The translations under genes were made by a program, and so were the position numbers. A stretch of DNA of 64,000 bases from an uncultured bacterium. GTDB taxonomy: Bacteria; Fermentibacterota; Fermentibacteria; Fermentibacterales; JCC-6. The notes under the pieces were generated by a model, which saw only the letters and a list, made by a program, of their open reading frames with translations, did not search any database and was not told where the DNA came from. Positions 8,449-20,869 of this stretch are shown here, piece by piece (the first letter of the stretch is position 1; the number at the start of each line of letters is the position of its first letter). The DNA lies in the NCBI GenBank assembly GCA_965372215.1, contig CBDVBK010000007.1, positions 5,041 through 69,040 of the forward strand, written 5' to 3'.

Positions 8449-8970
8449 CTACGTCCCTGGGAGGAGGTTGGGGAGTGTTGACAGCAAAATGCTGACAGCC
8501 GGGGACAGCGGATCCCCAAGTTTAAGAGTTCCCGGTTGAATTGCCAGCATGAATACCGTGGCTCCCGTCTCGCTTTCCAGCCTTTCCATAACCAGAACAG
8601 GTGAAAGACTGTGCGTGCTGAAACCGCTGTTCTCCAGTATTTCGTCCCGTTCGAGCAGCTCGACTGATCCCGGTTCCGAGCCGAGATGTACTGCATCAAC
8701 CATAACTATTATCTCAGGCTCAAGCCTTTTCACCGGACCTATATAATTCTCGGGAACAGTGCCTGCGTCCACAACTCTGGCACCCCTTTCCCGTAGCGCT
8801 TCAACAAGATGTGGTCCTATACCATCGTCTCCCCTGAGAATATTGCCCATCCCAATATAGACGATTCGTCCTTTCAGCAGTTTCCGGATCTTTTCCTGCA
8901 GTTCTTTCACATCAGTCCAGTCATCCTGTTTAAACTTATTATAACAGCAAAATACCGGTGACACGTTCAA
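8449..8970 (-). CDS. Hydrogenase maturation endopeptidase (HycI/HybD family). The true start may be internal.
   Basis: GMGNxxRGDDGIGP and DAV(H) motifs diagnostic of the Ni-dependent C-terminal processing protease. 33 bp downstream of the hydrogenase operon. Confidence 0.8.
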   Translation of the reverse strand: MNVSPVFCCYNKFKQDDWTDVKELQEKIRKLLKGRIVYIGMGNILRGDDGIGPHLVEALRERGARVVDAGTVPENYIGPVKRLEPEIIVMVDAVHLGSEPGSVELLERDEILENSGFSTHSLSPVLVMERLESETGATVFMLAIQPGTLKLGDPLSPAVSILLSTLPNLLPGT

Positions 8971-9003
8971 ATGTCACCGGTCAGTTTTTATCCGGTTCTG
9001 CTA

Positions 9004-9621
9004 TTACTCGGGATATGTGGCTGTTCTCCGTCTGCATTCAGCACAGAGAATCTTGATTCTGTCAGATCGTCCATCGTCTTTATATACAGTGGTTATATTC
9101 TCGTCCACAAGACCGAGTTCCTTCAATCGGGAAAGGTACAATGTGGGATTTGAAAATGAAAGCTCTCCGAGTTTTTCAGCCAGCCAGACAAGGTGATCCT
9201 TAGTGCCGATGACAACCCCGCAGAGCTCGCAGAGCTGAAGGTCCTTCTCAATAGTTTCAAATGCTTCCGTGCGATCGAAGTATGAGAGTTCCCATTCATT
9301 CGTCTGAACAATACCTGTATCTCCGGTTTCCCTTACGCATGTATCAACGCAGACACCGCAGAAAATGCATGTATCGGTATAATGAATCATCACCCGTTTT
9401 GGAGCACCCTCTCCTTCAAGAAGGTCTTCAAAAGCCAGTGCATTTGCAGGACAGGCTTCTACACACGCAAGGCACCCAAGGCATTTCTCCTCGTCATAAA
9501 CAACCTGTCCTCTGAAATTTGGATGAGGAACGTGTGGCTTCGCGGGAAACTTTGAGGTGTATGGTTTCTTAACCACCGCTTTGATTGCTTCTGCGAGTTC
9601 TCTGACCTTTGGATATTTCAT
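9004..9621 (-). CDS. NuoI/MbhN-like 2x[4Fe-4S] ferredoxin subunit of a group-4 hydrogenase, with a Cys-rich C-terminal extension
   Basis: Two CxxCxxCxxxC(P) motifs (CLGCLACVEACP, CIFCGVCVDTC), plus an extra CELCG...CAECRRR pair near the C-terminus. Confidence 0.75.
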   Translation of the reverse strand: MKYPKVRELAEAIKAVVKKPYTSKFPAKPHVPHPNFRGQVVYDEEKCLGCLACVEACPANALAFEDLLEGEGAPKRVMIHYTDTCIFCGVCVDTCVRETGDTGIVQTNEWELSYFDRTEAFETIEKDLQLCELCGVVIGTKDHLVWLAEKLGELSFSNPTLYLSRLKELGLVDENITTVYKDDGRSDRIKILCAECRRRTATYPE

Positions 9622-9660
9622 ATTTCCATCCGTAAGTATCGCCAGTGGCGATTCGTTATT

Positions 9661-10029
9661 CTAGGCTTCTCCCTCTTTGTCCTCAGCGTAACTGTCAACC
9701 ACACTCTTGTCCCAGAGCTTGATACCGGCTCGGTGCGCTCCCCGGGACACAGCATGCGCTGCTACAGGAGACGCAAGAATAAGGAATACTATTGCTATCA
9801 GCGCTTTAAACCCTGTAGGTGTAAATCCACCGGCCATCAGAAACGTACCGAACAGTATGCTGCATGTTCCCAGAGTAACACATTTTGTCGCTGCCTGAAG
9901 ACGATTGTAGACATCAGGAAGACGGATCAGTCCAATGCAGCCGAATACATCAAATCCAATTCCAACACCAATAAAGACCATTCCAATAATATCAATCATC
10001 GAAGCTTCTTCCCTCCAGATACTTGGCAA
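9661..10029 (-). CDS. MnhG/MbhC-like Mrp antiporter small subunit
   Basis: RLQAATKxxTLG motif typical of MnhG. Three TM helices. Confidence 0.65.
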   Translation of the reverse strand: MPSIWREEASMIDIIGMVFIGVGIGFDVFGCIGLIRLPDVYNRLQAATKCVTLGTCSILFGTFLMAGGFTPTGFKALIAIVFLILASPVAAHAVSRGAHRAGIKLWDKSVVDSYAEDKEGEA

Positions 10030-18462: not shown

Positions 18463-18983
18463 TGAATTGAATGAGCAACAATCCTGTTACCCACTTTGAA
18501 TACATTGTCACCTTCGAATGTGTCATCCACAATTTTAAGAGCACCATACGGACAGGTTTTAACACATGTGAATTCATCCCTGCCCTCACAATAATCGCAG
18601 ATATTCGTAAGATGCGGTGTCAGCTCGGGGTATATTGTTCCATAAGGACATGCATGTGAGCAGGATCGGCAGCTGACACATCTTACAGTATGCCGGACCA
18701 GCATCCCGTCAGCATCCTCCAGTTTTTCAAGGGCATCCTTCGGGCATACATTGACGCAGTGAGGTTCCTCGCACTTCCTGCAGATAAGTACGTAAGTAGC
18801 AAGCTCTATAAGAGATATCATTCCGTTATTCACGGGGTGATAGAAGTAACTGCAATCAATTACACATTCATCACATTGATCAGAATTACAGATGTCCAGA
18901 TCTATGAAAAGCTTCTTCCCGTCTGATTTGCCGGCATCAAGGCTGCCATGAAGCTGATCAAGTGAAGTCCTGCTCATCCTCAT
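18441..18983 (-). CDS. Polyferredoxin-like iron-sulfur protein (2-3 [4Fe-4S] clusters)
   Basis: CxxCxxCxxxCP motifs (CVSCRSCSHACPYG, CDYCEG...CVKTCPYG) plus other Cys clusters. Confidence 0.7.
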   Translation of the reverse strand: MRMSRTSLDQLHGSLDAGKSDGKKLFIDLDICNSDQCDECVIDCSYFYHPVNNGMISLIELATYVLICRKCEEPHCVNVCPKDALEKLEDADGMLVRHTVRCVSCRSCSHACPYGTIYPELTPHLTNICDYCEGRDEFTCVKTCPYGALKIVDDTFEGDNVFKVGNRIVAHSIHWDKDRA

Positions 18984-18989
18984 ACCTTC

Positions 18990-19805
18990 CTAGTCCCAGA
19001 TTCCCGGGAAATCCCGAATCATATTATATGTAAAAACAGGACCGTCCTTGCAGCAGTAGTAAGGTCCTATTCTGCAGTGGCCGCATTTTCCGAAACCGCA
19101 CGACATATTCTTCTCCATGGAGAGATAGATATTTCTGTCCTTCACCCCGAGTTCATTCAGTTTGAAAGTTGCAAATTTCATCATTATCGGAGGACCGCAG
19201 ACGACCGCTTTCACTCTGGAATAGTTCATATCAATGCCGTCCATGATCGATGTAACAAGACCTACAGGACCATTCCAGGTGTCATCACCCTCATCTACAG
19301 TAAGAACCATGTCAATATCATCGCGTTTCATCCAACCCTCAAGTTCCTTTCGAAAGATCAACTCTTTGGGATTTCTGCAACCGCCTCTGTAAACAAGTTT
19401 TGATAGTTTGTCACTTATGTGAAACAGATCGTACATCAGGGTGCGTATAGGAGCAAGGCCAACACCACCGCCGACAATAAGTACTTCCTGACCGATGAAT
19501 CTTATCATGGGGTATCCCTTGCCAAGCGGACCTCTTAAACCAACAGTGTCACCCGGTTTGAGCTTATGTATCTCATCGGTTACTTTCCCCACATTTACGA
19601 TGGTTATCTCCATCGTATCCTTTATTTCAGAGTCAGAAGACGGAGTGAATGGAGCCTCACCAAGGCCGGGAACCGAGAGTTCCATAAACTGGCCGGGCTT
19701 GAAGGTGAGTTCTTCCTTCGGCTTGAACATAAATGTCTTGATTGTAGGTGTTTCAGTTGTGACTTTGAGTACTTCGGCTTCTATGGAGCGATATGGATTT
19801 TTCAT
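18990..19805 (-). CDS. AsrB/HydG-like FAD/NAD(P)-binding oxidoreductase subunit with a C-terminal [2Fe-2S] site (PyrK family). Start trimmed to Met-30 at 19805.
   Basis: Ferredoxin-NADP reductase-like fold with an RxYS-type FAD-binding motif and GGGVGLAP in the NAD(P)-binding domain. C-terminal CGFGKCGHC...C. ATGA overlap with the upstream gene. Confidence 0.7.
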   Translation of the reverse strand: MKNPYRSIEAEVLKVTTETPTIKTFMFKPKEELTFKPGQFMELSVPGLGEAPFTPSSDSEIKDTMEITIVNVGKVTDEIHKLKPGDTVGLRGPLGKGYPMIRFIGQEVLIVGGGVGLAPIRTLMYDLFHISDKLSKLVYRGGCRNPKELIFRKELEGWMKRDDIDMVLTVDEGDDTWNGPVGLVTSIMDGIDMNYSRVKAVVCGPPIMMKFATFKLNELGVKDRNIYLSMEKNMSCGFGKCGHCRIGPYYCCKDGPVFTYNMIRDFPGIWD

Positions 19806-20869
19806 CTTTTTTGCGCACCCAGTTTTTCGAGTACCTGTCTTATATCGATTTTGCCCGGACATGCGGCTATACATCTTCCGCACCCTGTACATGCAATTTC
19901 ATCAGCTACAACAGGGAAATAATCAAACTTCTTTTCAAATCTGTTCCTAAACCGCATCCACAATCGATTTCTTGGATTCTCTCCTCCTGCCACCCGTGCG
20001 AAATCATTTATCATGCAGGAATCCCATATCCGGTATCTGGCCAGGCTGCCATCAGATTTCTGATCGTACAGAAGGAAACAGTGACATGTCGGGCAAATCA
20101 CATTGCATGCTCCGCATTCGACACAGGTGGCAGCTTCTTCGGACCAGACATCAGACTCGTAATACTTTCTGACAATGCGCTGGAGTCTTTTAACCGGCGG
20201 AATATTCCTCTGCCGGACATTTCTTTCGAGATGCTGCTTCACTGAAGAACGATTGTGGTCGCGGTGCCGTACCTGATCTTCTGTTGATTCCTGAAAAAGT
20301 CCGGCATGATCATCGATTACTTTCTGCCCTTTATCGCTTCCGATTTCTACGACAAAACCTTCATCGGTTTCCGACAGATTTATGTCGTATTCTGATTCGG
20401 GCCATGGATTAACACCCATCGCGGTACAGAAACAGGTTTCTGCAGCTTTTGTGCAGTCAGCAGAGATAATCAAACCATCAGTTCTTGCTTTAATATAGGT
20501 TGGGTCTCCGCATTCTTCATCCATGAAGACAAAATCAAGTATTTTGAGTCCTTTTAAATCGCATGATTTCACACCGACGATACATGGAGGTTTATCATTT
20601 CGGGGATTTTCAGGACTGAAATCAACAGCAACCTTCTCACGACCAAGAAAGTAAAAGGCTTTGAGCGGCTCGAATGACCTGATTTCTCCTATTACATAAT
20701 CTTCTTTTGATTCACCAAATGCAGTGAATGCAATACTATCCCCTTTTCGGGAAGGTACAAATACCCTGTAATCCCCCGAAAGGGATTCCAGAAGCTCAAA
20801 AAGACTACCCCGTTTGATGAAACGCATTGCAATGAAATAGAAATTGAGACCAGTTTTGTCAAGGGGCAT
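19802..20869 (-). CDS. AsrA/HydB-like [4Fe-4S] subunit (anaerobic sulfite reductase subunit A / sulfhydrogenase beta-like)
   Basis: Two ferredoxin-type motifs (CVECGACNVICPTCHC, CTGCGRCIAACP). Its size and its pairing with the AsrB-like gene match the AsrAB/HydBG architecture. Confidence 0.65.
   Translation of the reverse strand: MPLDKTGLNFYFIAMRFIKRGSLFELLESLSGDYRVFVPSRKGDSIAFTAFGESKEDYVIGEIRSFEPLKAFYFLGREKVAVDFSPENPRNDKPPCIVGVKSCDLKGLKILDFVFMDEECGDPTYIKARTDGLIISADCTKAAETCFCTAMGVNPWPESEYDINLSETDEGFVVEIGSDKGQKVIDDHAGLFQESTEDQVRHRDHNRSSVKQHLERNVRQRNIPPVKRLQRIVRKYYESDVWSEEAATCVECGACNVICPTCHCFLLYDQKSDGSLARYRIWDSCMINDFARVAGGENPRNRLWMRFRNRFEKKFDYFPVVADEIACTGCGRCIAACPGKIDIRQVLEKLGAQKR

What the first reader, a model, noticed from the sequence alone, without database searches (positions are those of the whole stretch)
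8449..20869. 16-gene group-4 membrane-bound [NiFe] hydrogenase with rearranged Mrp and catalytic modules and two large antiporter-like subunits
The large subunit retains both Ni-binding CxxC pairs (RICGICSTSH and DPCYCCTER), so this is a true hydrogenase and not an Mbx- or complex-I-like derivative. The gene order places the catalytic module first and the Mrp module last: AsrA-like, AsrB-like, polyferredoxin, NuoH, NuoB, NuoC, NuoD, NuoL, two MnhB-like, MnhC, NuoN, MnhE, MnhF, MnhG, NuoI, then the HycI-type protease. This is the reverse of the Pyrococcus mbhA-N order. The NuoI-like subunit is displaced to the far end. Two antiporter-class subunits (567 aa and 497 aa) are present. That suggests a higher ion-to-electron stoichiometry, and a subgroup (4b/4d/4g-like) that is poorly characterised biochemically.
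Basis: partly seen in the sequence, partly recalled or inferred. Interest (0 to 1): 0.6.

Follow-up and report, generated by a model that had tools for sequence, protein, structure and literature searches.

The report
NAD(P)H-linked Mrp-coupled [NiFe] hydrogenase operon
This is a real and intact 17-gene operon for a membrane-bound hydrogen-producing enzyme that seems to take its electrons from NAD(P)H and is joined to a complete sodium/proton antiporter; the same operon occurs in the cultured bacterium Kosmotoga olearia and in dozens of uncultured bacteria, but nobody has tested it biochemically.

Summary
Window 8449-20869 (- strand) holds 17 tightly packed, co-directional genes for a group-4 [NiFe] hydrogenase. 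All metal ligands are intact and a full hyp maturation set lies next door (921-6765).

- The "AsrA/AsrB-like" genes are homologues of the NADPH-binding beta and gamma subunits of Pyrococcus soluble hydrogenase I.
- The "polyferredoxin" is HycB-type and the terminal "NuoI" is HycF-type, as in E. coli formate hydrogenlyase.
- The antiporter genes are not scrambled. They form a split-mrpA, mrpB-G block in canonical order, inserted between the large-subunit gene and the hycF-like gene. Relatives without this block exist.
- The larger antiporter-like subunit resembles MbsH' and lacks the conserved TM5 glutamate, so a higher pumping stoichiometry does not follow.

The same 17-gene order occurs in 42 MAG loci from several phyla (large subunit 78-95% identical) and in Kosmotoga olearia (Kole_0560-0575, 55%). 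Related clusters have been noted in silico in published genome surveys.

Best reading: a reversible NAD(P)H:H+ oxidoreductase coupled to a Na+/H+ gradient. It is a new member of a gene-cluster type that is recognised but uncharacterised. Interest is moderate.

The parts
19802..20869 (-). SHI-beta-like (HydB/ShyB/AsrA-family) iron-sulfur subunit, 355 aa (a start at Met15, 20827, is possible)
   Evidence: Pfam Fer4_22 4e-30. NCBIfam ShyB 5e-53, HydB 8e-45, AsrA 9e-41, all below cut-off. PDB 9nez_B sulfhydrogenase 1 beta 4e-42. 15 Cys invariant in 59/59.
18990..19892 (-). SHI-gamma-like FAD/NAD(P)H/[2Fe-2S] subunit; likely start Met30 at 19805 (ATGA overlap with the upstream stop)
   Evidence: Pfam NAD_binding_1, FAD_binding_6, DHODB_Fe-S_bind. 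PDB 9nez_C 3e-55, aligned from residue 31. GEAPFTPSS, GGGxGxAPxR, R169, K/R173 and Cys265/270/273/281 invariant in 65/65.
18441..18983 (-). HycB/CooF-type ferredoxin with four [4Fe-4S] motifs
   Evidence: Pfam Fer4_11. NCBIfam HydN/DmsB-like. PDB hits include HycB3/HycB4 of the hydrogen-dependent CO2 reductase (HDCR) and an AOR polyferredoxin. 16 Cys conserved in 68-69/69.
17533..18462 (-). NuoH/HycD/MbhM membrane anchor (likely start Met7 at 18444)
   Evidence: Pfam NADHdh 3e-66. 25 invariant charged residues across 69 homologues.
17089..17511 (-). hydrogenase small subunit (NuoB/HycG/MbhJ)
   Evidence: Pfam Oxidored_q6 1e-26. Cys22, 25, 89 and 119 invariant in 78/78.
16616..17089 (-). NuoC/MbhK subunit
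   Evidence: Pfam Complex1_30kDa 2e-23.
15432..16616 (-). [NiFe] large subunit, 394 aa, with a 35-residue C-terminal extension after DPCYCCTER
   Evidence: Pfam NiFeSe_Hases + Complex1_49kDa. PDB 6cfw_L MbhL 5.5e-86, 7z0s_E HycE 5.9e-80. 41% and 38% identity. Cys64, 67, 353 and 356 invariant in 81/81.
13732..15435 (-). MrpA N-terminal / MbsH'-like antiporter-like subunit, 567 aa, with Gly82 in place of the TM5 Glu
   Evidence: Pfam Proton_antipo_M. NCBIfam PRK08668 aligned 17-564. PDB 6u8y_X MbsH' aligned 14-562. TM5 W-G-F against W-E-L of MrpA. Gly invariant in 67/67; K169, K200 and K342 kept.
13173..13718 (-). MrpA C-terminal domain (MbhD+MbhE fused)
   Evidence: Pfam MbhD + MbhE. NCBIfam aligns it to residues ~600-790 of MrpA models.
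12721..13176 (-). MrpB/MnhB (MbhF)
   Evidence: Pfam MnhB 6e-24. NCBIfam PRK08386 above cut-off.
12368..12721 (-). MrpC/MnhC (NuoK-like, MbhG)
   Evidence: Pfam Oxidored_q2 2e-26. NCBIfam MnhC models.
10878..12371 (-). MrpD/MbhH antiporter-like subunit, 497 aa, with canonical charged residues
   Evidence: Pfam Proton_antipo_M 9e-72 + Proton_antipo_N. PDB 6cfw_H 5e-83, 7qru_D 1e-72. E146, K228, K259 and K401 invariant.
10357..10872 (-). MrpE/MnhE (MbhA)
   Evidence: Pfam MNHE 2e-44.
9992..10360 (-). MrpF/MnhF (MbhB)
   Evidence: Pfam MrpF_PhaF 1e-17.
9661..10029 (-). MrpG/MnhG (MbhC); likely start Met11 at 9999
   Evidence: Pfam PhaG_MnhG_YufB 9e-23. NCBIfam PRK12674 above cut-off.
9004..9621 (-). 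HycF-type NuoI homologue, 205 aa: two [4Fe-4S] motifs plus a C-terminal Cys quartet
   Evidence: NCBIfam PRK12387 FHL iron-sulfur subunit 2e-21. PDB 7z0s_F HycF 2e-14. Cys131, 134, 193 and 196 invariant in 57/57. They are proposed to correspond to the HycF Cys117/120/155/158 metal site described in PMC9474812.
8954..8981 (-). 10-11 bp G+C-rich hairpin followed by ATTTTGCTGT, in the gap between the hycF-like gene and hycI
   Evidence: Terminator-like scan, best hit of the region; sequence read. Function not tested.
8449..8970 (-). HycI-type maturation endopeptidase (likely GTG start at 8910, 153 aa)
   Evidence: Pfam HycI 3e-14. NCBIfam hydrog_prot above cut-off, hycI 2e-28. Start inferred and from the 149-aa K. 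olearia orthologue.
5745..6765 (+). hypA (5745-6092) and hypB (6094-6765)
   Evidence: NCBIfam hypA 2e-20. Pfam cobW/HypB/UreG.
921..5669 (-). hypF (3360-5669), hypC (3055-3357), hypD (1961-3058), hypE (921-2057)
   Evidence: Pfam HypF domains. NCBIfam hypD 1e-153 and hypE 2e-137, both above cut-off. hypC from its MCLGVPG N-terminus and position; same order hypF-C-D in K. olearia.

Best explanation
The operon encodes a 16-subunit membrane complex plus its maturation protease. A group-4 [NiFe] hydrogenase core (large, small, NuoC-like and NuoH-like subunits) is wired through a HycF-type and a HycB-type ferredoxin to a flavoprotein module homologous to the beta/gamma subunits of soluble hydrogenase I. 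It is bolted in the membrane to a complete Mrp antiporter (split MrpA, MrpB-G).

Proposed electron path: NAD(P)H -> FAD -> [2Fe-2S] (gamma) -> three clusters (beta) -> four clusters (HycB-like) -> two clusters (HycF-like) -> proximal cluster (small subunit) -> Ni-Fe site -> H2.

The reaction NAD(P)H + H+ <-> NAD(P)+ + H2 lies close to equilibrium. I therefore propose that the Mrp arm couples it reversibly to a Na+/H+ gradient. The gradient pushes H2 evolution from NAD(P)H when H2 is high. The enzyme conserves a small amount of energy when H2 is kept very low, or when it runs as an H2:NAD(P)+ reductase. In design it is a formate hydrogenlyase/Mrp-Mbh hybrid in which an NAD(P)H dehydrogenase replaces the formate or CO dehydrogenase.

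Shown: gene content, intact ligands, and conservation of the whole arrangement. Inferred: that beta/gamma are part of the complex, the NAD(P)H specificity, and the direction and ion coupling.
For: (1) Functional hydrogenase. The Ni-binding and proximal-cluster Cys are invariant. A C-terminal extension plus HycI is present. hypA-F are adjacent.

(2) The beta/gamma module. The closest solved structures are P. furiosus sulfhydrogenase I beta and gamma. All FAD, NAD(P) and 2Fe-2S motifs and 15 beta-subunit Cys are invariant. A basic residue (K/R173) and R169 are invariant in the gamma subunit; R173 aligns with an Arg of the NADPH-using SHI gamma, and Lys176, which also aligns, is variable in the family.

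(3) FHL-type wiring. There is a 16-Cys HycB-like protein. The NuoI homologue carries a C-terminal Cys quartet like the one that in E. coli HycF sits at the HycB/FdhF interface.

(4) The link between beta-gamma-HycB and the core is tighter than the link to Mrp. The order beta-gamma-HycB-H-B-C-L is found in 54/57 loci with enough upstream sequence. It is also found in K. olearia (55% large-subunit identity), in a 42%-identical clade without Mrp, in Spirochaetota variants without Mrp, and in a 57%-identical sister clade that inserts an Fdh-like gene.

(5) Translational coupling. ATGA or 1-nt overlaps occur at most junctions, including beta/gamma and HycB/NuoH with the inferred starts.

(6) Redox regulation. 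A Rex repressor gene lies directly upstream in 18 loci. Rex boxes with at most 2 mismatches lie within 200 nt of the beta gene in 9/55 loci, which is 0.44 per kb against 0.005 per kb in the rest of the loci.

(7) Complete Mrp. All seven subunit families are present in canonical order.

(8) Independent in-silico proposals exist for NADPH-linked group-4 complexes: PMC13582414 (SHI beta/gamma homologues) and PMC3035292 (SudA-linked MBX-like complexes).
Against: There are no biochemical data for any member. In K. olearia the cluster is weakly expressed on pyruvate (RPKM about 40-200, against about 1900 for the [FeFe] hydrogenase). The published metabolic models I read assign these enzymes to ferredoxin. 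I could not model the complex, so distances between clusters of the beta, HycB-like and HycF-like subunits are unknown. NADPH versus NADH specificity rests on two or three residues. The window's own promoter region has no Rex box, and a FIST protein and a PAS hybrid kinase lie upstream instead. The MrpA-like subunit lacks the TM5 Glu, so part of the ion machinery may be non-canonical.
Confidence: 0.55

Rival explanations
1. A ferredoxin-dependent, H2-evolving Mrp-Mbh, as assumed in published metabolic reconstructions. Reduced ferredoxin from pyruvate or 2-oxoacid oxidation donates to the HycB-like or HycF-like subunit. The beta/gamma genes encode a separate or accessory enzyme that is merely co-transcribed.
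For: The closest characterised enzyme by large-subunit sequence is the ferredoxin-dependent P. furiosus Mbh. Authors describing Fermentibacteria, Omnitrophota and Cloacimonadota genomes assign such hydrogenases to ferredoxin. HydDB lists group 4g as 'ferredoxin-coupled (putative)'. HycB-type polyferredoxins can accept electrons from several partners.
Against: The ferredoxin-binding subunit of Mbh (MbhN, 139 aa) is replaced here by a HycF-type protein carrying a Cys quartet like the one at the HycB/FdhF interface of E. coli FHL, together with a HycB-type connector. In the solved FHL, that architecture docks a dehydrogenase. Beta and gamma are present, in the same place and translationally coupled, in 54/57 loci and in three further clades down to 42% large-subunit identity. 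That is hard to explain for an unrelated passenger.
Confidence: 0.25
2. A three-way redox hub or confurcating enzyme. The complex takes electrons from both ferredoxin and NAD(P)H, or distributes them between H+ and NAD(P)+, so that ferredoxin oxidation helps drive H2 formation from NAD(P)H, with the Mrp arm balancing the energetics.
For: The 2026 survey proposed bifurcation or confurcation for relatives that carry SHI beta/gamma plus a Cys-less Fdh-like subunit, from AlphaFold models with a branched cluster network. That sister type is 57% identical in the large subunit. The many clusters (15 Cys in beta, 4 clusters in HycB-like) leave room for a branch.
Against: The window's clade and K. olearia lack the Fdh-like subunit that forms the third branch. 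To my knowledge, the SHI gamma/PyrK-type FAD with one 2Fe-2S cluster is not an established bifurcating flavin site. No ferredoxin-docking feature was identified.
Confidence: 0.12
3. A sulfur-compound reductase. The AsrA/AsrB-like pair reduces sulfite, polysulfide or S0 with electrons from H2 oxidised at the Ni-Fe site, in the manner of a 'sulfhydrogenase'.
For: NCBIfam AsrA and AsrB models give E 9e-41 and 2.5e-66. SHI has in-vitro S0 reductase activity, and the Hyd24-12 paper suggested a sulfhydrogenase role for a hydrogenase in these genomes.
Against: Both Asr scores are below the curated cut-offs (140 against 323; 223.5 against 288.6). No AsrC or siroheme subunit was found in the operon or among the window ORFs scanned. 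No extra conserved gene appears in the operon in the 80 related loci, nor among the conserved flanking gene families. From general knowledge, S0 reduction by SHI is not regarded as physiological.
Confidence: 0.04

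Closest known systems
Kosmotoga olearia TBF 19.5.1 cluster Kole_0560-Kole_0575 (CP001634.1, about 608-630 kb)
   Same: Identical 17-gene order: beta, gamma, HycB-like, NuoH, NuoB, NuoC, large subunit, MrpA-N, MrpA-C, MrpB, C, D, E, F, G, HycF-like, HycI, followed by hypF-C-D. 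The same TM5 Gly is present in the MrpA-like subunit.
   Different: Only 33-60% identity per subunit (large subunit 55%). The flanking regulators differ (ArsR-type HTH proteins). The function is equally unknown. It is listed only as 'hydrogenase' and is weakly expressed on pyruvate.
P. furiosus membrane-bound hydrogenase MBH (PDB 6CFW; HydDB group 4d)
   Same: [NiFe] large and small subunits, NuoC-, NuoH- and NuoI-like subunits, and MbhA-H homologues (MrpE, F, G, MbhD/E, MrpB, C, D). It is the best structural match for the large subunit and for the MrpD-like subunit.
   Different: 41% large-subunit identity. There is no MbhI. A second, MbsH'/MrpA-like antiporter subunit is present. The NuoI homologue is HycF-type. 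A HycB-like subunit and SHI beta/gamma-like subunits are added. The Mrp genes follow the catalytic genes rather than precede them.
E. coli formate hydrogenlyase FHL-1 (PDB 7Z0S; group 4a) and the Mrp-linked formate/CO hydrogenlyases of Thermococcus (group 4b)
   Same: The soluble arm is built as dehydrogenase - HycB - HycF - small subunit - large subunit, and the NuoI homologue has a C-terminal Cys quartet like that of HycF. As in group 4b, an Mrp module is attached.
   Different: No FdhF or CODH is present; an FAD/NAD(P)H flavoprotein pair sits in its place. NuoC is not fused to the large subunit. Identity to HycE is 38%. There are no HycC/HyfB-type subunits.
P. furiosus soluble hydrogenase I (sulfhydrogenase, group 3b; PDB 9NEZ)
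   Same: The beta and gamma subunits are the closest solved homologues of the first two genes, with all cofactor motifs kept.
   Different: The group-3 alpha/delta catalytic pair is absent. The module is attached to a membrane-bound group-4 core and an antiporter.
P. furiosus MBS/Mbx sulfane-sulfur reductase (PDB 6U8Y)
   Same: Two antiporter-like subunits. The 567-aa protein aligns over its full length with MbsH', whose helix HL/TMH15-16 replaces MbhI in MBS (PMC8165549).
   Different: MbsL has lost the Ni-binding Cys, whereas here they are invariant. MbsH' keeps the TM5 Glu (E128), whereas here it is Gly.
'Enigmatic' group-4 clusters with asrA/asrB/cooF plus a molybdopterin protein (Saganbacteria RX5A, PMC6349859; 'group 4b with SHI-beta/gamma', PMC13582414)
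   Same: The sister clade: large subunit 57% identical, with the same beta-gamma-...-HycB-H-B order and an Mrp block.
   Different: Those clusters carry a 535-aa Fdh-like protein between gamma and HycB, a fused NuoC-large subunit, and a Glu at TM5 of the MrpA-like subunit. The window's clade has none of these.

Membership tests
Group 4 (energy-converting) [NiFe] hydrogenases | Large subunit with N-terminal RxCGxCxxxH and C-terminal DPCxxCxxH/R Ni-Fe ligand motifs | tested here: met
   RICGICSTSH and DPCYCCTER are present. Cys64/67/353/356 are invariant in 81/81.
Group 4 (energy-converting) [NiFe] hydrogenases | NuoB-type small subunit with one proximal [4Fe-4S], plus NuoC-, NuoH- and NuoI-like partners | tested here: met
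   Pfam hits. Cys22/25/89/119 are invariant.
Group 4 (energy-converting) [NiFe] hydrogenases | Maturation by Hyp proteins and a HycI-type endopeptidase acting on a C-terminal extension | tested here: met
   HycI lies at 8449-8970. There is a 35-aa extension after Arg359. hypA-F lie at 921-6765.
HydDB subgroup (4b / 4d / 4g) | Placement of the large subunit by the HydDB classifier or in a labelled reference tree | not testable with these tools
   The HydDB reference table held here is truncated before the [NiFe] entries. Indirect evidence: Mrp-linked group-4 enzymes of Omnitrophota/Cloacimonadota MAGs were called 4g; the Fdh-like relatives were called 4b; 4g is polyphyletic. Identity is 41% to a 4d prototype and 38% to a 4a prototype.
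Pyrococcus-type MBH (14 subunits, ferredoxin-dependent) | MbhI subunit, a single antiporter-like subunit (MbhH), and a short MbhN that binds ferredoxin directly | tested here: not met
   None of the 17 products corresponds to MbhI. There are two Proton_antipo_M subunits. The NuoI homologue is 205 aa with a HycF-type Cys quartet, and a HycB-like subunit is present.
Formate/CO hydrogenlyases (groups 4a-4c) | A formate dehydrogenase or CO dehydrogenase catalytic subunit encoded with the hydrogenase | tested here: not met
   The cluster has no molybdopterin or CODH gene, and none is among the conserved flanking gene families of the 80 closest loci. None is present in K. olearia either.
Formate/CO hydrogenlyases (groups 4a-4c) | HycB-type four-cluster connector and HycF-type subunit with a C-terminal Cys quartet | tested here: met
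   16 conserved Cys in the connector. Cys131/134/193/196 are invariant in the NuoI homologue, like HycF Cys117/120/155/158.
Mbx/MBS and Ehr hydrogenase-related complexes | Loss of the Ni-binding cysteines in the NuoD-like subunit | tested here: not met
   All four Cys are invariant, so it is not an Mbx/Ehr-type derivative.
Mrp (CPA3) antiporter module | All seven subunit families MrpA-G, encoded in that order | tested here: met
   MrpA is split in two, followed by MnhB, MnhC, MrpD, MNHE, MrpF and MrpG.
Mrp (CPA3) antiporter module | Conserved TM5 Glu / TM7 Lys / TM12 Lys in both MrpA and MrpD | tested here: not met
   The MrpD-like subunit has E146/K228/K401. The MrpA-like subunit has Gly82 in place of the Glu (67/67) but keeps K169 and K342.
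Group 3b sulfhydrogenase (SHI/SHII) | Beta and gamma subunits associated with group-3 alpha and delta catalytic subunits in a soluble heterotetramer | tested here: not met
   Beta/gamma homologues are present. The catalytic pair is of group-4 type (ShyA/HydA models only 3e-12 and 2e-5).
Anaerobic sulfite reductase AsrABC | AsrA and AsrB above family cut-off, together with the siroheme subunit AsrC | tested here: not met
   AsrA scores 140 bits against a cut-off of 323. AsrB scores 223.5 against 288.6. No AsrC-like gene was found in the operon or among the larger window ORFs scanned.

The most novel reading that the evidence does not exclude
The complex is a hydrogenase counterpart of respiratory complex I: an ion-translocating NAD(P)H:H+ oxidoreductase whose NAD(P)H-input module (SHI beta/gamma type) is not homologous to NuoEFG. 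It would let fermenters that lack electron-bifurcating hydrogenases dispose of NAD(P)H as H2 at the expense of a Na+/H+ gradient, or gain energy from H2-dependent NAD(P)+ reduction. Its MrpA-like subunit, which lacks the TM5 Glu, may have become a coupling or structural element rather than a pump. Because Kosmotoga olearia carries the same operon, this can be tested directly.
Probability: 0.45. Interest if true: 0.7.

Novelty: new member of a known kind. Interest (0 to 1): 0.45.

Why it matters
If the NAD(P)H link is real, this widespread enzyme would close a gap in anaerobic bioenergetics. Large-subunit relatives 78-95% identical occur in MAGs labelled Fermentibacterota, Omnitrophota, Planctomycetia, Hydrogenedentota, Elusimicrobiota and others, and the operon is also in Kosmotoga. 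H2 formation from NAD(P)H is uphill unless H2 is very low, and the known solutions are electron confurcation or Rnf plus a ferredoxin hydrogenase. A gradient-coupled NAD(P)H hydrogenase would be a third solution. It would also be an independent example of an NAD(P)H module being grafted onto a hydrogenase-Mrp chassis, which is the step thought to have produced complex I. Metabolic models of these candidate phyla currently treat the enzyme as ferredoxin-dependent and would need revision.

Tried and rejected
1. HydDB or reference-tree classification. The HydDB supplementary table held here is cut off before the [NiFe] entries, and the 2026 survey has no held supplements. The subgroup could therefore only be bracketed from the literature and from pairwise identities.

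2. An Fdh-like or molybdopterin subunit, as in the published 'enigmatic' clusters. No such gene lies within the cluster or among the conserved flanking gene families in the 80 closest loci. A long stop-to-stop extension upstream of the beta gene in L025 has no Pfam hit. The Fdh-like gene is confined to the sister clade.

3. A Rex box in the window's own promoter region. There is none. The four 3-mismatch matches in the window lie elsewhere and number no more than chance. The window instead has a FIST protein and a PAS hybrid kinase upstream.

4. The 535-aa gene directly downstream (6792-8399) as an extra subunit. It has no Pfam hit, is a polytopic membrane protein, and is conserved only in four close Fermentibacteria loci. 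I rejected it as part of the complex.

5. Locus L046, where unrelated genes follow the large subunit. This looks like a broken or rearranged locus rather than a variant membrane arm.

6. Linking the clade to the Ace Lake MAGs classified as 4g. Tracing JGI-sourced homologues led to other samples.

7. The SHI structure paper and the Schut 2013 review are not in the library. NADPH-contact residues could not be taken from the source.

8. Sigma-70 promoter scan: no more hits than in shuffles.

Full report
OBSERVATION

The region 8449-20869 carries 17 ORFs on the - strand. With the best-supported start codons, 12 of the 16 junctions overlap by 1-8 nt or leave at most 6 nt; three of those starts are internal Met codons I inferred. 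The remaining gaps are 13-39 nt, plus 33 or 93 nt before hycI depending on its start. ATGA overlaps occur at the beta/gamma, HycB/NuoH, large-subunit/MrpA, MrpA-C/MrpB, MrpC/MrpD and MrpE/MrpF junctions.

The two quoted Ni-binding motifs are present in the 394-aa large subunit. The coordinates and the observation are therefore correct. These are long ORFs with E-values down to 1e-72, so chance is not an issue.

The rest of the window holds ordinary chromosomal genes: dnaK, dnaJ, dnaG, rpoD, mutS2 and an ABC transporter. GC content is uniform at 44-49%. The nearest database relatives are MAGs of Candidatus Fermentibacteria/Aegiribacteria, formerly Hyd24-12.

WHAT THE PARTS ARE

Catalytic core. 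The large subunit is closest, among solved structures, to P. furiosus MbhL (E 5.5e-86, 41% identity) and E. coli HycE (5.9e-80, 38%).
- Its four Ni-Fe cysteines are invariant in 81 family members.
- The four cysteines of the small subunit's proximal cluster are also invariant.
- A 35-residue extension follows DPCYCCTER, and a HycI-type protease gene ends the operon.
- hypA and hypB (5745-6765, + strand) and hypF, C, D, E (921-5669, - strand) lie just downstream.

This is a functional hydrogenase, not an Mbx-, Ehr- or complex-I-type derivative.

Input module. The first two genes were called AsrA/AsrB-like. Their best matches are in fact the beta and gamma subunits of P. furiosus sulfhydrogenase I (PDB 9nez_B 3.9e-42; 9nez_C 3.2e-55) and the NCBIfam ShyB/HydB/HydG models. 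The Asr models score below their cut-offs, and no AsrC was found in the operon or among the larger window ORFs scanned.
- The gamma-like protein keeps the FAD motif (GEAPFTPSS), the dinucleotide motif (GGGxGxAPxR) and the 2Fe-2S cysteines in 65/65 homologues.
- R169 and a basic residue at 173 are invariant; R173 aligns with an Arg of the NADPH-using SHI gamma, while Lys176, which also aligns, varies in the family.
- The beta-like protein has 15 invariant cysteines.

Connectors. The third gene encodes a protein with 16 conserved cysteines in four [4Fe-4S] motifs, of HycB/CooF/HydN type. The 'displaced NuoI' is 205 aa. It has the two usual cluster motifs plus an invariant extra quartet, Cys131/134/193/196. 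Its best family match is the FHL iron-sulfur subunit, and HycF is among its best structural matches. In the E. coli FHL structure, HycF has a similar C-terminal quartet (Cys117/120/155/158). That quartet binds a single metal ion at the interface with HycB and the formate dehydrogenase (PMC9474812). The soluble arm is thus built like a hydrogenlyase (dehydrogenase - HycB - HycF - small subunit - large subunit), with the flavoprotein pair where FdhF would be.

Membrane arm.
- The 567-aa protein aligns over its whole length with MbsH' of the P. furiosus MBS complex (6u8y_X, residues 14-562 against 61-612) and with the N-terminal part of MrpA.
- The 181-aa protein after it (Pfam MbhD+MbhE) aligns with the last ~170 residues of MrpA.
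- MnhB, MnhC, an MrpD/MbhH-type 497-aa subunit, MnhE, MnhF and MnhG follow.

The 'Mrp module' is therefore a complete mrpA-G set in canonical order, with mrpA split in two. No MbhI homologue is present. In MBS the C-terminal helix HL/TMH15-16 of MbsH' takes over that role (PMC8165549), so I infer the same here.

One departure stands out. At the position of the conserved TM5 glutamate (W-E-L in MrpA, L-E-I in MbhH, W-E-L in NdhF), the 567-aa subunit has W-G-F. The Gly is invariant in 67/67 family members and is also found in K. olearia. The Fdh-like sister clade keeps Glu. The TM7, TM8 and TM12 lysines are retained. The MrpD-like subunit is fully canonical.

COMPARATIVE GENOMICS

A scan of one genome per GTDB species returned 80 loci whose large subunit is 78-95% identical. 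All are MAGs. By record title they are Fermentibacteria/Aegiribacteria, Omnitrophota, Planctomycetia, Hydrogenedentota, Spirochaetota, Elusimicrobiota, Nitrospiraceae, Sumerlaeota and 'Deltaproteobacteria'.

I mapped the 17 window proteins onto all ORFs of these loci.
- The upstream half (beta-gamma-HycB-H-B-C-L) is in order in 54/57 loci with enough sequence.
- The downstream half is in order in 47/53.
- Exactly the 17 genes in order occur in 42 loci.
- Most exceptions are ORF-sorting or contig-end artefacts.

Real variants are informative.
- Two Spirochaetota loci have the large-subunit gene followed directly by the hycF-like gene and hycI, with no Mrp genes at all (L040, L049).
- L082 and L088 add a PhoU-domain gene and a third MrpD-like gene.

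The mrp block is therefore a cassette inserted between the large-subunit gene and hycF. This accounts for the 'displaced NuoI' and for the apparent reversal relative to mbhA-N.

A search of 1.84 billion 50%-identity cluster representatives found 770 clusters at E<1e-30. Only two full-length representatives are more than 50% identical to the query; the next best are 45% or less (a few fragmentary representatives also exceed 50%).
- One is Kosmotoga olearia TBF 19.5.1 (WP_012745069; 55%). Its locus, CP001634 ~608-630 kb, Kole_0560-0575, has the identical 17-gene order followed by hypF-C-D.
- The other (57%) has a fused NuoC-large subunit and a 535-aa molybdopterin-like gene between gamma and HycB. 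This matches the 'enigmatic' Saganbacteria cluster with cooF, asrA and asrB (PMC6349859). It also matches the 'group 4b' clusters with SHI beta/gamma homologues and Cys-less Fdh-like proteins (PMC13582414).

A 42%-identical representative again has beta-gamma-HycB-H-B-C-L-I, without Mrp. Across all these clades the beta/gamma/HycB genes stay with the core while the Mrp block comes and goes.

Flanking genes. hypF, hypD and hypE follow the operon in 23, 18 and 7 loci. A Rex redox-sensing repressor gene (Pfam Put_DNA-bind_N + CoA_binding) precedes it in 18 loci. Rex operator-like palindromes (TTGTGA-N6-TCACAA, at most 2 mismatches) lie within 200 nt upstream of the beta gene in 9 of 55 loci. That is 0.44 per kb against 0.005 per kb in the remainder of the same loci. 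The window itself has no such box. It has a FIST-domain protein and a PAS hybrid histidine kinase upstream.

MECHANISM

The parts and their conservation point to NAD(P)H as electron donor, or NAD(P)+ as acceptor. Electrons would pass from FAD and 2Fe-2S (gamma) through beta, the HycB-like and HycF-like proteins and the small subunit to the Ni-Fe site.

From standard potentials (-320 mV for NAD(P)+/NAD(P)H and -414 mV for H+/H2), NAD(P)H -> H2 costs about +18 kJ/mol at 1 bar H2. It becomes slightly favourable only at roughly 1-10 Pa H2. A reaction this close to equilibrium is a plausible partner for a reversible ion-coupling module. The gradient could drive H2 evolution from NAD(P)H, or the enzyme could conserve energy during H2-dependent NAD(P)+ reduction or at very low H2.

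Rex control in part of the family fits an NADH-disposal role. A Mesotoga study states that K. olearia lacks a bifurcating hydrogenase, which would leave room for such an enzyme.

All of this is inference. The steps actually shown are gene content, intact cofactor ligands, operon structure and conservation. The rival readings (ferredoxin-only Mbh, a branched hub, a sulfur reductase) are weighed in the structured fields.

Mrp and MBS both have two, and the extra one here lacks the TM5 Glu.

COMPARISON WITH THE LITERATURE AND NOVELTY

- Omnitrophota and Cloacimonadota MAG studies call their Mrp-linked enzyme HydDB group 4g. I could not confirm that those MAGs carry this exact clade.
- NADPH-dehydrogenase-linked MBH/MBX-like complexes were proposed from genomes as early as 2010, with a SudA module in Desulfurococcaceae.
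- The K. olearia cluster is listed among that organism's hydrogenases and is weakly transcribed on pyruvate.

The gene-cluster type is thus already in databases and has been noticed, including the idea of an NADPH link. No member has been purified or assayed in the literature I could search. The window's operon is a new member of that recognised but uncharacterised kind.

This analysis adds four points:
- the canonical-mrp-cassette explanation of the gene order;
- the HycF/HycB (hydrogenlyase-type) wiring;
- the invariant loss of the TM5 Glu in the MrpA-like subunit;
- the Rex association and the exact orthologue in a cultivable bacterium.

VERDICT

Interest is moderate (0.45). The enzyme class is potentially important for anaerobic bioenergetics and for thinking about the origin of complex I. 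However, the finding as stated (rearranged order, two antiporter subunits) is largely explained, and the cluster is not new to the literature.

Noticed in passing
window 8954-8981 (- strand), in the gap 8911-9003: A perfect 10-11 bp G+C-rich hairpin (ACCGGTGACA...TGTCACCGGT) followed by ATTTTGCTGTTATAAT lies between the hycF-like gene and the probable GTG start of hycI (8910). It could be a partial terminator or attenuator that lowers protease expression relative to the structural genes, or an mRNA-stability element.
   Followed up: partly
window 6792-8399 (- strand): A 535-aa polytopic membrane protein with no Pfam hit lies 50 nt downstream of hycI on the same strand. It is conserved at this position only in four close Fermentibacteria/Aegiribacteria loci (L004, L005, L012, L016; 72-89% identity). 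It loosely resembles glycosyltransferase-39-like membrane proteins by eye. It is probably not part of the hydrogenase.
   Followed up: partly
window 13732-15435, residue Gly82; family alignment of 67 loci: The MrpA/MbsH'-like subunit has an invariant Gly where all characterised antiporter-like subunits have the TM5 Glu. K. olearia shares the Gly. The Fdh-like sister clade (L085) keeps Glu.
   Followed up: yes
L040:2662-5043 and L049:3921-6269 (Spirochaetota MAGs); L087:5808-12011: These are natural variants of the same operon with no Mrp genes at all: the large-subunit gene is followed directly by the hycF-like gene, and in L040 and L049 then by hycI (no hycI gene was called in L087). The only membrane subunit left is the NuoH homologue, so these enzymes may be membrane-anchored but non-pumping.
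   Followed up: partly
L082:6360-8256 and L088:2167-3179: A recurrent variant inserts a PhoU-domain protein and a third, shorter MrpD-like subunit between the large-subunit gene and the MrpA-like gene.
   Followed up: no
L021:5070-5762 and 17 other loci; Rex boxes e.g. L059, L061, L065, L067 about 20-40 nt upstream of the beta gene: A Rex redox-sensing repressor gene lies directly upstream of the operon in 18 loci. Near-perfect Rex operators (TTGTGATTTTATTCACAA) sit just before the first gene in 9 loci. The window's own lineage lacks both.
   Followed up: yes
window 21235-24532 (- strand): Directly upstream of the operon lie a PAS/HisKA/HATPase/receiver hybrid histidine kinase (697 aa) and a FIST-domain sensor protein (403 aa). 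A similar PAS-kinase gene precedes the operon in a few Fermentibacteria loci, so it may be the lineage-specific regulator.
   Followed up: no
window 31241-34912 (- strand): A 1223-aa ORF with no Pfam hit is flanked by TPR proteins and by two SLT lytic-transglycosylase proteins, one of them with LysM domains (28134-36478). Related genes recur upstream of the operon in several Fermentibacteria loci.
   Followed up: no
/, all loci: The large and small subunits are unusually conserved across phyla (78-95% and 79-98% identity), while other subunits of the same operons are 33-65% identical outside the Fermentibacteria-like loci. This suggests very strong constraint on the catalytic pair, inter-phylum transfer of the operon, or both.
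   Followed up: no
L083 (K. olearia CP001634.1), region between Kole_0566 and Kole_0568: The original annotation used in Pollo et al. lists Kole_0567 as a 'pseudogene'. Current gene calls show three intact ORFs there (599, 178 and 152 aa: MrpA-N, MrpA-C and MrpB).
   Followed up: partly
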